Virus record (IMG/VR): IMGVR_UViG_2541047839_000005 | Source of the DNA: a virus | Taxonomy: Duplodnaviria > Heunggongvirae > Uroviricota > Caudoviricetes | Length of the DNA: 39,762 nucleotides | Direction: 5' to 3' (one strand) | Part shown: positions 34,705 to 36,102 of the stretch, in pieces | Layout: the number at the start of each line of letters is the position of its first letter | Numbering within the stretch: position 1 is the stretch's first letter | Notes under the pieces: generated by a model | Database searches by the model: none | What the model saw: the letters and a program-made list of their open reading frames with translations, nothing else | What the model was told of the DNA's origin: nothing | Translations under genes and position numbers: made by a program

Positions 34705-35751
34705 ATGAGTATGGTTGATTTATATTCGCCTGCCCAGCTTGTGCAGGTGGCTAATGCAGAAGAGGTGCAAAAAAAATTAAATGCATTGTTTACCAGTTTG
34801 TTTTTCACTCGCTCGGTAATGTTTGAATCAAGAGACATTATTCTTGATACAATCGACGATCCAAATATCCCAATTGCAGCGTTTTGTTCTCCTATGGTGG
34901 GTAGTAAAGTTTCACGTGACGAAGGGTACGAATCAAAGACAATTCGTCCAGGCTATATGAAGCCGAAAAGCAGCATTGATCCAAATAAGTTAGCTGTGCG
35001 CCCTGCTGGTGTATCACCTGAGCAATACAATGCTTTTGGAGCGCGTAATATTAAAGTTAAACAGGCGATTGTAAATCAGGCTAAAGCTATTCGTGCACGT
35101 ATTGAATGGCTTGCCGTTCAGGCAATCACAACGGGGAAAAATATCATTGAGGGCGATGGCATTGAACGCTATGAACTGGACTGGAATATAAAACCACAAA
35201 ATATTATCACGCAGTCCGGCGGTGCTGAGTGGTCAGGTAAGGATAAAGAAACTTTTGATCCAAATGATGATATTGAGAGCTACGCAGAATTTAGTGAGGG
35301 CGTCACTAATATCATCATTATGGGCGGTAATGTATGGAAGAAATACCGTTCATTCAGAGCGATAAAAGAGGCTCTGGATACCCGTCGTGGTTCTAATTCC
35401 GAACTGGAAACGGCCCTTAAAGACCTTGGTGATTCGGTGAGTTTTAAAGGGTATATGGGCGATGTTGCGATTGTTGTATACAGCGGGCGTTATACCGACG
35501 AGGACGGAACTGAAAAACATTTCCTTGATCCTGATTTGATGGTGCTTGGCAATACGGCTCTTCAGGGGATTGTCGCCTATGGCGGTATTCAGGATCCGGA
35601 GCTAATCCGAATGGGGCTGACTAAAGCCGAACTTGCACCGAAAAACTATATTGTGCCTGGTGATCCGGCTATTGAATATGTGCAGACACATTCAGCACCA
35701 CAGCCAATACCGGCCCGCATCAATCGTTTTGTTACCGTTCGCATTGGCTAA
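34705..35751 (+). CDS. island-encoded major capsid protein, lambda E homologue
   Basis: About 348 aa starting MSM like lambda E. Long collinear blocks with E (ITQSGGAEWSGKDKETFDPNDDIESYA...; YRSFRAIKEALDTRRGSNSELETALKDLGDSVSFKGYMGDVAIVVYSGRY), clearly divergent from the prophage copy. Confidence 0.85.
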   Translation: MSMVDLYSPAQLVQVANAEEVQKKLNALFTSLFFTRSVMFESRDIILDTIDDPNIPIAAFCSPMVGSKVSRDEGYESKTIRPGYMKPKSSIDPNKLAVRPAGVSPEQYNAFGARNIKVKQAIVNQAKAIRARIEWLAVQAITTGKNIIEGDGIERYELDWNIKPQNIITQSGGAEWSGKDKETFDPNDDIESYAEFSEGVTNIIIMGGNVWKKYRSFRAIKEALDTRRGSNSELETALKDLGDSVSFKGYMGDVAIVVYSGRYTDEDGTEKHFLDPDLMVLGNTALQGIVAYGGIQDPELIRMGLTKAELAPKNYIVPGDPAIEYVQTHSAPQPIPARINRFVTVRIG

Positions 35752-35760
35752 GGGGGAGCA

Positions 35761-36102
35761 ATGGCTACTCATTACACTGAACTCATGGCTGGCACTGAAG
35801 CACTGGTGACTACGCTGGGGATATTTTCAGCTAATAAAGGGGTAATTCCTGCATTTACGCCACTGATGCAGGAAGATGCAACAGGTGCACTGGTGGTATG
35901 GGATGGTTCGAGCGTAGGTAAAGCGGTTTATGTTTCCGCTGTACAAATCGACACCGCGAAAAAAACACAGGCTCAGGTCTATAAGACAGGTGTCTTAAAT
36001 GTTGATGCTCTGAACTGGCCTGAGTCTGTAAAAGAACTGTCAGTAAAGATTGCAGCGTTTGTTGGCTCAGGTATTTCTGTTCAGCCGCTGGCTCGTGTGT
36101 AA
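35761..36102 (+). CDS. island-encoded head decoration protein, lambda D homologue
   Basis: 113 aa. TPLMQEDATGALVVWDGSSVGKAVYVSAVQ...AAFVGSGISV is collinear with lambda [31 protein letters not shown]...[11 protein letters not shown]. Confidence 0.75.
   Translation: MATHYTELMAGTEALVTTLGIFSANKGVIPAFTPLMQEDATGALVVWDGSSVGKAVYVSAVQIDTAKKTQAQVYKTGVLNVDALNWPESVKELSVKIAAFVGSGISVQPLARV

What the first reader, a model, noticed from the sequence alone, without database searches (positions are those of the whole stretch)
34705..36102. Satellite encodes its own divergent lambda E-like capsid and D-like decoration proteins
The island carries homologues of exactly the two outer-shell proteins of the lambda head (E and D), but no portal, protease, scaffold or large terminase. 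The E homologue is clearly divergent from the prophage copy, which the island interrupts. A plausible reading is capsid redirection: building particles, possibly smaller and suited to an 11-kb genome, from satellite shell proteins on helper-supplied portal, protease and terminase. That would be a capsid-forming satellite strategy specific to lambda-type helpers.
Basis: inference. Interest (0 to 1): 0.75.

Follow-up and report, generated by a model that had tools for sequence, protein, structure and literature searches.

The report
Known satellite's own lambda-type head genes
The two genes are real, intact copies of the lambda head-shell and head-decoration proteins carried by a phage satellite sitting inside its helper prophage's capsid gene, but both this gene pair and this nested arrangement are already published, and tests on the closest studied relative argue against the small-capsid idea.

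Summary
Window 34711-35751 encodes a full-length lambda gpE-family major capsid protein, 43% identical to lambda E. Window 35761-36102 encodes a gpD-family decoration protein, 37-39% identical to lambda and helper D. Both lie in a 10,888-bp satellite that splits the resident lambda-like prophage's E gene at codon ~82. The satellite has no portal, protease, scaffold or large terminase. It does carry its own Nu1-like small terminase and a lambda-type cosN.

This is already known. The island is a near-identical variant of the published helper-embedded PICI Eco567.11capE: integrase 408/411, E 341/346, D 113/113. The E/D pair is homologous to EcCICFT073 c1499/c1500 (54-55% identity; crystal structure 3BQW).

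For EcCICFT073, the published experiments found c1499 dispensable for transfer. Neither gene interfered with lambda, and all packaged DNA was phage-sized.

New here: the pair belongs to a satellite-only lineage, with no phage homologue above ~42% identity. Its gene order (E then D) is reversed relative to phages. It is under strong purifying selection (dN/dS 0.02-0.04 for E).

Most likely reading: conditionally redundant shell proteins for lambda-sized heads. Their function remains unproven.

The parts
27140..27384 (+). 5' fragment of the resident prophage's major capsid gene E (codons 1-82), ending in the attL core
   Evidence: 82/82 residues identical to lambda gpE up to the KPKH motif. RefSeq annotates the same 246-nt fragment as 'major capsid protein, missing C-terminus' in identical or related strains.
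27375..27384 (+). attL core (AGCCGAAGCA)
   Evidence: This 10-bp block occurs exactly twice in the window, at the two junctions. Its length matches the 10-bp identity block reported for 11capE (PMC10111431).
27497..28783 (+). Satellite tyrosine integrase (RefSeq start is equivalent to 27548)
   Evidence: Pfam Arm-DNA-bind_3 and Phage_integrase. It is 408/411 identical to the integrase of NRG857c 11capE.
27511..27533 (+). Doubled TGTATTGC motif, downstream attP arm
   Evidence: Found as repeat family D8. It lies 131.5 bp from the att centre, which matches the published 132 +/- 2 bp.
28785..29012 (+). alpA (regulator/excisionase next to int)
   Evidence: Pfam Phage_AlpA 2.8e-15.
31750..33501 (+). 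D5-type primase/replicase
   Evidence: Pfam D5_N, DUF5906 and Pox_D5. It is 80.5% identical to the EcCICFT073 primase.
33572..33686 (+). Probable ori iterons just downstream of the primase gene
   Evidence: Two 30-nt repeats, 85 bp apart (family D7). The position matches the PICI ori described in PMC6092414. The assignment is an inference.
34045..34494 (+). SSB
   Evidence: Pfam SSB 1.2e-14.
34620..34655 (+). Conserved NTTGCAN repeats at 10-bp spacing, 77-102 nt upstream of the E-like start; candidate operator of an E-D promoter
   Evidence: The repeats are conserved in E. coli, Kluyvera, Superficieibacter and Kosakonia relatives, while the rest of the intergenic region diverges. Function is inferred only.
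34711..35751 (+). E-like major capsid protein (346 aa), satellite lineage
   Evidence: Sequence and fold evidence. dN/dS is 0.023-0.039. No phage homologue exceeds 42.4% identity.
35761..36102 (+). D-like head decoration protein (113 aa)
   Evidence: Family assignment. The best solved relative is phage 21 SHP (1TD0, E=6.2e-16). It is 113/113 identical to the 11capE D protein. dN/dS is 0.06-0.24.
36114..36497 (+). Second AlpA-family HTH protein, directly after D
   Evidence: Pfam Phage_AlpA 1.4e-8 and PHROG 2790 1.8e-48. The E-D-AlpA trio is conserved in relatives.
36510..36690 (+). Satellite cos region; cosN is GGGCGGCGACCT at 36554-36565
   Evidence: Exact match to the lambda left end through ...CGCGGGTTTTCGCTATTTATGA. 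The position corresponds to the cos upstream of rpp in EcCICFT073.
36699..37241 (+). Nu1-family small terminase (satellite TerS)
   Evidence: Pfam Phage_Nu1 1.4e-24 and PHROG 57 8e-52. It is 42% identical to the helper Nu1, with the C-terminal half best conserved. It occupies the slot that RppA holds in EcCICFT073.
37253..37534 (+). Conserved 93-aa late-zone protein of unknown function
   Evidence: PHROG 1561, unknown function, 1.3e-53. It is 73% identical to the last gene of EcCICFT073. No match in PDB, PADLOC or NCBIfam.
38164..38186 (+). Doubled TGTATTGC motif, upstream attP arm
   Evidence: Its end lies 81.5 bp from the att centre, against the published 81 +/- 2 bp.
38263..38272 (+). attR core (AGCCGAAGCA)
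38273..39053 (+). 3' part of the resident prophage's E gene
   Evidence: 255/258 residues identical to lambda gpE. Pfam Phage_cap_E covers profile positions 94-328.

Best explanation
Identity (about 0.95 confident). The two genes form the E-D cassette in the late zone of a known kind of phage satellite. It is a Gram-negative PICI of the helper-embedded '11capE / E:Phage_cap_E_80' type, integrated inside and co-oriented with gene E of a lambda-like prophage. The cassette is homologous to c1499/c1500 of the model PICI EcCICFT073.

Mechanism (about 0.4 confident, inferred). The genes encode working shell proteins of a satellite-specific lineage. They would be made late, either from a dedicated regulated promoter upstream of E or by read-through of the helper's late transcript while the island is still embedded. 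The E-like protein would assemble, alone or mixed with helper gpE, on the helper's portal, protease and scaffold into lambda-sized (T=7) heads. The D-like trimer would then stabilise the E-like lattice, whose D-binding region has diverged from that of helper gpE.

The island's Nu1-like TerS would bind the island cosB and recruit helper TerL (gpA), which cuts at the lambda-type cosN. About four island copies would fill one head: 4 x 10,888 = 43.6 kb, or 90% of lambda.

When the helper supplies intact E and D the cassette is redundant, which would explain the lack of phenotype in laboratory tests. It would matter when helper E is unavailable, for example while the island itself splits it, or when the helper is defective or mismatched.

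Shown here: gene identity, fold, lineage, selection, synteny, att and cos anatomy. Inferred: expression, assembly, head size and conditional redundancy.
For: Identity.
- The att core, the integration site at E codon ~82, and the doubled TGTATTGC motifs at -81.5 and +131.5 bp all match the published HE-PICI description.
- Against NRG857c 11capE, the integrase is 408/411, E is 341/346 and D is 113/113 identical.
- Synteny with EcCICFT073 holds throughout, with E 54% and D 55% identical.
- PDB 3BQW (CFT073 'putative capsid protein of prophage') is the best solved match (E=3e-121, TM 0.83). Lambda gpE follows (E=1e-77, TM 0.78-0.80).

Functional proteins.
- dN/dS is 0.023-0.039 for E and 0.06-0.24 for D on unsaturated pairs. 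dS is saturated across genera while dN stays at 0.05-0.14 for E.

Satellite-only lineage.
- None of 50,697 phage records has E above 42.4%, D above 40.2% or the TerS above 47.6% identity.
- A neighbour-joining tree splits a PICI clade from a phage clade.
- All 13 loci of the PICI clade that I examined have a PICI context.
- The E-then-D order is constant in PICIs and is the reverse of lambda's D-then-E.

Capsid building.
- A cognate D is always kept beside E.
- A fis-site PICI adds an S49 gpC-like protease after E-D.

Lambda-sized heads.
- EcCICFT073 DNA packaged by lambda is all phage-sized (PMC6092414; PMC6739421).
- IS-free relatives measure ~10.4-11.3 kb, so four copies make 86-93% of lambda.
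- From established lambda biology (my knowledge): packaging needs ~78-105% of genome length, and gpD is needed above ~82%.

Redundancy.
- An island with c1499 replaced by cat transfers well.
Against: - No experiment shows the satellite E or D proteins in any particle.
- In EcCICFT073 no phenotype has been found for c1499 or c1500.
- No virions could be recovered from the 11capE/50icd strain.
- The cassette also occurs in PICIs at chromosomal sites. It even occurs in a PICI nested in a P2-like prophage, whose capsid family differs. It therefore cannot simply be a patch for an interrupted helper E.
- At 43% identity, compatibility of the E-like protein with the lambda portal, Nu3 and gpC is unproven.
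- Size arguments do not exclude two copies in a T=4 head.
Confidence: 0.5

Rival explanations
1. Capsid size redirection. The E-like protein, with the D-like protein, forces assembly of small heads (T=3 or T=4) that hold one or two island copies and exclude the helper genome.
For: Satellite-encoded capsid homologues do this in SaPIbov5, and the mechanism is suspected for PmCI172. One island copy (10.9 kb) would suit a T=3 head and two copies (21.8 kb) a T=4 head; this is arithmetic. The N-terminal arm and the spine-helix region, which shape capsomer contacts, are the parts most diverged from lambda E, at 22-37% identity. This TerS-type island has never been tested.
Against: For EcCICFT073 with lambda, all packaged DNA was phage-sized, and the authors ruled out size redirection. 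Deleting c1499 or c1500 had no effect on interference. The model of the E-like protein is a complete gpE-type fold with no extra or missing domain. Island sizes also fit four copies per lambda head.
Confidence: 0.1
2. Backup copy specific to the embedded state. The island carries E, and D with it, only to replace the helper capsid gene that it interrupts, so that heads can form before or without excision. This was suggested by Tommasini et al.
For: The island splits helper E, and all its main genes are co-oriented with the helper late operon, so late transcription could read into them. The authors propose this role. Excision of 11capE is late and sometimes incomplete.
Against: The same cassette, at 94-98% nucleotide identity, sits in PICIs at tRNA-Pro/yejM and at cspD/clpS. 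The homologous cassette sits in EcCICFT073 next to roxA/phoQ. None of these interrupts a capsid gene. The cassette is an old satellite lineage, not a copy of the helper gene: it is 43% identical, with reversed gene order. D is not interrupted, yet a D homologue is carried as well.
Confidence: 0.15
3. Interference or decoy. The satellite E and D poison helper head assembly, or titrate helper scaffold and portal, to reduce phage yield.
For: Satellites commonly interfere with their helpers, and diverged subunits could in principle act as dominant negatives. This is an inference with no direct support.
Against: Individually overexpressed EcCICFT073 late-zone genes other than rppA did not inhibit lambda, and deleting rppA alone fully restored plaquing. 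Deleting c1499 or c1500 did not relieve interference. A poison would not need a cognate decoration protein that is itself under purifying selection.
Confidence: 0.07
4. The function lies outside virion building. Examples would be a trigger or shield for capsid-sensing defence systems, or a regulatory role. A decaying captured remnant is the other possibility in this class.
For: No phenotype has been found in the model satellite. PICIs are rich in defence cargo: TIR, Abi and HEPN/DUF262 genes occur in sister islands.
Against: The remnant version is excluded by dN/dS of 0.02-0.04, by intact reading frames across genera, and by presence in 365 of 5,426 complete E. coli genomes. A complete gpE fold paired with a decoration protein, and the added protease in one relative, point to assembly.
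Confidence: 0.1

Closest known systems
Eco567.11capE, the helper-embedded PICI in capsid gene E of prophage 50icd, E. coli NRG857c (Tommasini, Mageeney & Williams 2023, PMC10111431)
   Same: Both have the same integration site, splitting helper E after an identical 246-nt fragment. Both share the 10-bp identity block, the doubled TGTATTGC motifs at -81 and +132 bp, and co-orientation with the helper late genes. The integrase is 408/411, E is 341/346 and D is 113/113 identical, and both carry the AlpA-like gene after D.
   Different: The window copy carries a Nu1-like terS and the 93-aa gene where NRG857c carries HEPN and DUF262 genes on the opposite strand. The middle of the island aligns only in part. 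The resident prophage here has a nonsense codon in the portal gene and a variant cosN.
EcCICFT073 c1499 (capsid) and c1500 (head decoration); crystal structure PDB 3BQW (Fillol-Salom et al. 2018, 2019)
   Same: The late-zone synteny is the same: ssb ... E - D ... cos - packaging specificity gene - 93-aa gene. E is 54%, D 55%, the primase 80% and the 93-aa protein 73% identical. Both proteins belong to the satellite clade, and both islands share the lambda-type cosN.
   Different: EcCICFT073 is integrated at a chromosomal site, not in a prophage. It uses RppA (PDB 6HLK family) in place of a full TerS, and its integrase is only 45% identical. Experiments exist only for EcCICFT073, where E and D showed no phenotype.
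SaPIbov5 Ccm (a satellite-encoded capsid homologue that redirects capsid size)
   Same: Both are HK97-fold capsid-protein homologues encoded by a cos-packaged satellite that otherwise relies on helper head proteins.
   Different: Ccm produces small isometric capsids and is the main source of interference. It is only ~23% identical to its helper's capsid protein and has no partner decoration protein. The E. coli homologue gives phage-sized packaging and no interference.
Capsid-forming PICIs (cf-PICI, e.g. EcCIEDL933)
   Same: Both are satellites that encode their own capsid protein and small terminase, on an int-alpA-pri backbone of the E. coli PICI type.
   Different: cf-PICIs also encode a portal, protease, head-tail connectors, HNH and TerL, and they take only tails from the helper. 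This island has none of these. A relative with E-D plus an S49 protease (L015) is a partial step in that direction.
Phage lambda gpE/gpD and phage 21 SHP
   Same: Same protein families and folds. E is collinear over its whole length with only small indels, and the D THY and WPE motifs are kept.
   Different: Identity is 43% for E and 37% for D. There are clade-specific conserved motifs, for example AFCSPMVGS, EWLAV..TTGKNIIEG and GDPAIEYVQTHSAPQP. The gene order is reversed. No phage carries this subtype.

Membership tests
Lambda gpE major capsid family (Pfam PF03864, HK97 fold) | Full-length profile match above the curated cutoff | tested here: met
   142.8 bits against a cutoff of 22.9, covering profile positions 3-327 of 329.
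Lambda gpE major capsid family (Pfam PF03864, HK97 fold) | gpE-type three-dimensional fold | tested here: met
   The AF2 model (pLDDT 71.5, pTM 0.75) gives TM 0.83 to 3BQW and 0.78-0.80 to lambda gpE 7SJ5/7VI9. Low confidence is limited to the E-loop and a few other loops.
Lambda gpE major capsid family (Pfam PF03864, HK97 fold) | Assembles into an icosahedral shell | not testable with these tools
   This needs expression and EM or mass spectrometry.
Lambda gpD / SHP decoration family (Pfam PF02924) | Profile match above the curated cutoff, and similarity to solved gpD/SHP structures | tested here: met
   56.3 bits against a cutoff of 29.1. SHP 1TD0 scores E=6.2e-16 and lambda gpD 1C5E/7VII scores 1e-11.
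Gram-negative PICI (Fillol-Salom 2018) | int and alpA at the left end, unidirectional genes, pri-rep with downstream iterons, size ~10-20 kb | tested here: met
   int 27497-28783; alpA 28785-29012; primase 31750-33501; iterons 33572-33686; unit length 10,888 bp. All main genes are on the + strand.
Gram-negative PICI (Fillol-Salom 2018) | Own cos site and a packaging-specificity gene (rpp or terS) | tested here: met
   cosN at 36554-36565 is identical to lambda's, and a Nu1-family TerS lies at 36699-37241.
Gram-negative PICI (Fillol-Salom 2018) | Induction and high-frequency transfer by a helper phage | not testable with these tools
The 11capE authors saw excision but recovered no particles.
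Helper-embedded PICI, site E:Phage_cap_E_80 (Tommasini 2023) | [quoted passage not shown] | tested here: met
   The att cores lie at 27375-27384 and 38263-38272, inside the KPKH motif (codons 80-83) of a 99% lambda-like E.
Helper-embedded PICI, site E:Phage_cap_E_80 (Tommasini 2023) | Integrase of the HE-PICI clade | tested here: met
   408/411 identical to the 11capE integrase of NRG857c.
Helper-embedded PICI, site E:Phage_cap_E_80 (Tommasini 2023) | Doubled TGTATTGC motif 81 +/- 2 bp upstream and 132 +/- 2 bp downstream of the attP centre | tested here: met
   The motifs lie at 38164-38186 (81.5 bp) and 27511-27533 (131.5 bp).
Capsid-forming PICI (cf-PICI) | Encodes portal, maturation protease, head-tail connectors, HNH and large terminase in addition to capsid and TerS | tested here: not met
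   No such ORF or family hit exists in 27385-38262. The only ORFs above 200 aa are int, the primase and E.
Ccm-type capsid size redirection | The satellite capsid homologue causes small capsids and thereby interference | not testable with these tools
   This cannot be tested here. For the homologous c1499/c1500 the published result is negative: phage-sized DNA and no effect of the deletions.

The most novel reading that the evidence does not exclude
In TerS-type lambda satellites such as this one, the transducing particle's shell would be built largely or wholly from the satellite's own E-like and D-like proteins, on the helper's portal, scaffold/protease and TerL. That would make these elements 'half capsid-forming' PICIs, an evolutionary intermediate between classical PICIs and cf-PICIs. 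The lack of phenotype in EcCICFT073 would then reflect redundancy with laboratory helpers. A stronger version, with a T number different from the helper's, is less likely (about 0.1).
Probability: 0.25. Interest if true: 0.65.

Novelty: already known. Interest (0 to 1): 0.25.

Why it matters
The finding itself adds nothing new to the field. PICI-encoded capsid and decoration homologues were reported in 2018, and one has had a crystal structure since 2008. The satellite-inside-the-helper's-capsid-gene arrangement was described in 2023, with 201 instances at this site.

What remains open is why most Gram-negative PICIs keep a strongly conserved, satellite-only E-D pair that shows no phenotype in the laboratory. 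The selection, lineage and gene-order results here sharpen that question. They also point to a simple decisive test: complementation of helper E and D amber mutants, plus proteomics of the particles. A positive result would define an intermediate grade of satellite autonomy.

Tried and rejected
Context sampling therefore relied on E. coli records and on exact-protein look-ups.
- Rfam at gathering thresholds found nothing in the window, including the C4/isrK immunity RNAs reported in some PICIs.
- PADLOC and NCBIfam gave no hits for the island's unknown proteins.
- A PDB sequence search gave nothing for the 93-aa protein or for the satellite TerS.
- A strict lambda-type cos regular expression found no cos in most related loci, so cos comparison across relatives was dropped.
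- Consensus promoter and terminator scans around E-D were at or below shuffle expectation and were not used.
- Literature searches for later functional work on PICI capsid genes ('3BQW', 'helper-embedded', small capsids/lambda/PICI) found none in the library.
- A decaying-remnant reading was rejected on dN/dS.
- Recent capture from the resident helper was rejected: identity is 43%, gene order is reversed, and no close phage homologue exists.
- cf-PICI membership was rejected because portal, protease, TerL and connectors are absent.
- The second structure-prediction slot was not used. The D fold is already clear from sequence, and complexes cannot be modelled with the tool.
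Full report
**1. What is at the coordinates.**
The window is a lambda-like prophage. It carries an integrase at 1-1164 on the minus strand, Nu1 at 21196-21741, A at 21716-23641, portal B at 23841-25445, C up to 26742 and D at 26746-27084. Its head genes are nearly lambda: A 99.5%, B 99.1%, C 98.2%, D 96.4% and Nu1 93.4% identical.

Gene E begins at 27140 and is identical to lambda E for 82 codons. It then breaks at the KPKH motif and resumes at 38273-39053, where 255/258 residues are identical to lambda E. The 10-bp block AGCCGAAGCA occurs only at the two junctions, 27375-27384 and 38263-38272. 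The inserted unit is 10,888 bp.

**2. The two genes of the finding.**
The ORF at 34711-35751 (346 aa) matches Pfam Phage_cap_E over the whole profile (E=1.7e-41) and PHROG 29 'major head protein' (1.2e-89). The ORF at 35761-36102 (113 aa) matches Pfam HDPD (56.3 bits, cutoff 29.1) and PHROG 49 'head decoration'.

Identity is 43.4% to lambda gpE, and 36.5% and 38.5% to lambda and helper gpD. The finding's start at 34705 is probably 6 nt early. The Shine-Dalgarno AAAGAGG ends at 34704, and RefSeq starts the gene at the equivalent of 34711.

An AlphaFold2 model of the E-like protein (pLDDT 71.5, pTM 0.75) is a complete gpE-type HK97 fold. Foldseek gives TM 0.83 to 3BQW and 0.78-0.80 to lambda gpE. 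The low-confidence stretches are 55-70 and 84-95 (the E-loop region) and 315-322. There is no truncation and no added domain. By sequence, the D-like protein is closest to phage 21 SHP (1TD0, E=6.2e-16), ahead of lambda gpD (1e-11).

**3. The rest of the island.**
In order, the island carries:
- int at 27497-28783
- alpA at 28785-29012
- two minus-strand genes: a 178-aa unknown and a YlcI/YnfO-family gene
- an Icd-like gene and several small ORFs
- DUF4222
- the D5-type primase at 31750-33501, with iteron-like repeats at 33572-33686
- ssb
- E, then D
- a second AlpA-family gene at 36114-36497
- a cos region whose cosN and following 22 nt are identical to lambda's (36554-36565)
- a Nu1-family small terminase at 36699-37241
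- a conserved 93-aa gene
- about 730 bp without long ORFs

The island does bring its own packaging specificity in the form of TerS and cos.

**4. It is a published element.**
Tommasini, Mageeney and Williams (2023, PMC10111431) described 'helper-embedded PICIs'. [quoted passage not shown] It has a 10-bp att identity block, and they found 201 further instances at the same E site.

I located that element in NRG857c (L016). Against the window, its integrase is 408/411, its E 341/346 and its D 113/113 identical. The paper's diagnostic doubled motif tgTGTATTGCantgTGTATTGCa should lie 81 +/- 2 bp upstream and 132 +/- 2 bp downstream of the attP centre. In the window it lies at 81.5 and 131.5 bp.

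Islands 100% identical to the window's occur in E. coli GN06489, GN06758 and N68. A copy with an IS66 inserted in the primase occurs in FDAARGOS_1296.

**5. The E/D pair is also published.**
Fillol-Salom et al. [quoted passage not shown] I retrieved that island (L005:27931-38655). It has the same late-zone order, with E 54%, D 55%, primase 80.5% and the terminal 93-aa protein 73% identical to the window's.

The slot that holds TerS here holds RppA there (PDB 6HLK family, E=5e-31). PDB 3BQW, 'putative capsid protein of prophage (E. coli CFT073)', released in 2008, is the best solved match to the window protein (E=3e-121). According to Tommasini et al., a capsid gene is present in 21 of 29 reference Gram-negative PICIs.

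**6. What experiments on the relative say.**
For EcCICFT073:
- Deleting c1499 or c1500 did not restore lambda plaquing.
- When the late-zone genes were cloned individually, only c1503 (rppA) inhibited lambda, and deleting it 'fully restored plaque formation'.

[quoted passage not shown] For 11capE itself, excision was observed but no particles could be recovered.

No one has tested a TerS-type island such as this one.

**7. What I could add.**

(a) Satellite-only lineage. Among 50,697 phage records, the best match to the E-like protein is lambda E itself at 42.4%. The best match to D is 40.2% and to the TerS 47.6%. In a neighbour-joining tree of about 110 full-length homologues, the window protein and c1499 fall with Salmonella, Edwardsiella, Serratia, Cedecea and Lelliottia proteins. 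That clade is separate from lambda and the prophage E proteins. Every member whose neighbourhood I inspected is in a PICI context. There were 13 such loci: chromosomal sites at tRNA-Pro/yejM, cspD/clpS, roxA/phoQ and fis; helper-embedded copies in E. coli, Cedecea and Kosakonia; and one nested in a P2-like prophage.

(b) Reversed gene order. All of these loci have E followed by D, whereas lambda has D followed by E. This argues for one old acquisition rather than repeated capture from helpers.

(c) Purifying selection. For unsaturated E. coli pairs, dN/dS is 0.023-0.039 for E (dS 0.10-0.16) and 0.06-0.24 for D. Across genera dS is saturated, while dN is only 0.05-0.14 for E and 0.08-0.25 for D.

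(d) Distribution. 365 of 5,426 complete E. coli genomes carry at least 80% of this 1.6-kb E-D segment.

(e) Pattern of divergence. Relative to lambda E, the N-arm, E-loop and spine-helix parts (residues 1-150) are 22-37% identical, and residues 151-300 are 52-64% identical. Within the satellite clade the E-loop segment is the best conserved part of the N-terminal half, at 70% between the window protein and c1499. The first 57 residues evolve fastest.

(f) A relative with more. A Lelliottia fis-site PICI has E-D followed by an S49 gpC-like protease.

(g) Conserved upstream repeats. NTTGCAN repeats at exact 10-bp spacing lie 77-102 nt upstream of the E start in E. coli, Kluyvera, Superficieibacter and Kosakonia relatives, while the rest of the spacer diverges. 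This suggests a dedicated regulated promoter.

**8. Most likely mechanism.**
The steps below are inferred unless a call is cited.

A decoration protein of this family binds only the expanded lattice at three-fold sites formed by the capsid protein. It is needed when heads are nearly full (established lambda biology, my knowledge). A satellite that keeps a co-diverged E and D pair under strong selection is therefore most simply read as making real, DNA-filled shell lattice, not a decoy.

IS-free relatives are 10.4-11.3 kb. Four copies come to 86-93% of lambda, inside lambda's packaging window and above the length at which gpD becomes essential. This fits the phage-sized DNA seen for EcCICFT073.

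I therefore favour the following. The satellite E and D assemble on helper portal, protease and scaffold into T=7 heads. The satellite TerS and cos direct helper gpA to package tetramers. The cassette is redundant when the helper's own E and D are available, and useful when they are not.

I put about 0.4 on this mechanism and about 0.95 on the identity. Size redirection gets about 0.1. The embedded-state 'backup' reading gets about 0.15; it is weakened by the cassette's presence in non-embedded PICIs. Interference gets about 0.07, and a non-virion role about 0.1.

**9. Verdict.**
The novelty class is 'already known'. Interest is low (0.25) because both the gene pair and the nested configuration are in the literature. 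The residual value lies in the unresolved function. That function is directly testable by amber-mutant complementation and by particle proteomics.

Noticed in passing
window 24309-24311 (portal gene B, 23841-25445): The resident prophage's portal gene has an in-frame TGA at codon 157, where lambda has Trp. The protein is otherwise 99% identical to lambda. RefSeq flags 'internal stop' in a sister strain. The embedding 'helper' is therefore probably defective and cannot supply a portal in this strain.
   Followed up: partly
window 21007-21018 versus 36554-36565: The prophage cosN cohesive-end sequence is GGGCGGAAGGCG, whereas the island's is the canonical lambda GGGCGGCGACCT. They differ at 5 of 12 positions, with identical flanks. 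In NRG857c the prophage has the canonical form. It is unknown whether the resident terminase cuts both.
   Followed up: partly
window 34620-34655; also L006, L007, L009 and L016 upstream of their E genes: Two or three NTTGCAN repeats at exact 10-bp spacing lie 77-102 nt upstream of the satellite E gene. They are conserved across genera in this subgroup and absent upstream of c1499-type genes. The core resembles the TGTATTGC att-arm motif, which hints that one DNA-binding protein (AlpA or the Int arm domain) might act at both places.
   Followed up: partly
L014 (Salmonella enterica AAEGCM010000006.1), 3292-12978: A PICI-like element with the E-D-AlpA cassette is nested in the tail-gene region of a P2-like prophage, between the tail fibre genes and sheath/tube. 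Its integrase is only 21% identical to the window's. A lambda-type shell pair inside a helper candidate with a non-lambda capsid is hard to reconcile with simple co-assembly.
   Followed up: partly
L015 (Lelliottia sp. SL45), 9001-11752: A fis-site PICI carries E and D followed by a 447-aa S49 (gpC-like) protease. It also has a Phage_HCP-family gene near alpA. This is a more complete head module than in the window island.
   Followed up: no
L011 (E. coli B19695), 8869-10260: The satellite E gene is mosaic. It has 56 amino-acid differences from the window copy, concentrated in the N-terminal two-thirds, while the adjacent D differs at only 7 residues. This suggests recombination inside E.
   Followed up: no
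L016 (E. coli NRG857c), ~18279-20253: The published 11capE copy lacks the Nu1-like terS and the 93-aa gene. It carries HEPN and DUF262 genes on the opposite strand instead. Other sister islands carry TIR plus Abi genes (L012) or DUF2971. The right end is a cargo hotspot, and island length stays near 11 kb.
   Followed up: partly
window 10100-14000: A low-GC (36-39%) insert in the prophage lies after the ren gene. It encodes a large serine recombinase (10737-12263), a P22 antirepressor C-terminal domain protein (12375-12692) and a BstA abortive-infection protein (12882-13826; PADLOC E=3.8e-121). It may be a second nested mobile cassette.
   Followed up: partly
window 15848-18239 (minus strand): A second low-GC (34-36%) block in the prophage holds a 404-aa protein with no family hit and a 287-aa NA37 nucleoid-associated-family protein.
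   Followed up: no
window 29082-29618 (minus strand): A 178-aa protein lies in the island's variable zone at 32% GC. It has no Pfam, PHROG, PADLOC or NCBIfam match above threshold. It sits where sister islands carry defence genes.
   Followed up: partly
L001 (E. coli FDAARGOS_1296), 7581-10169: An otherwise 99.9% identical copy of the island has an IS66 element inserted in the primase gene.
   Followed up: no
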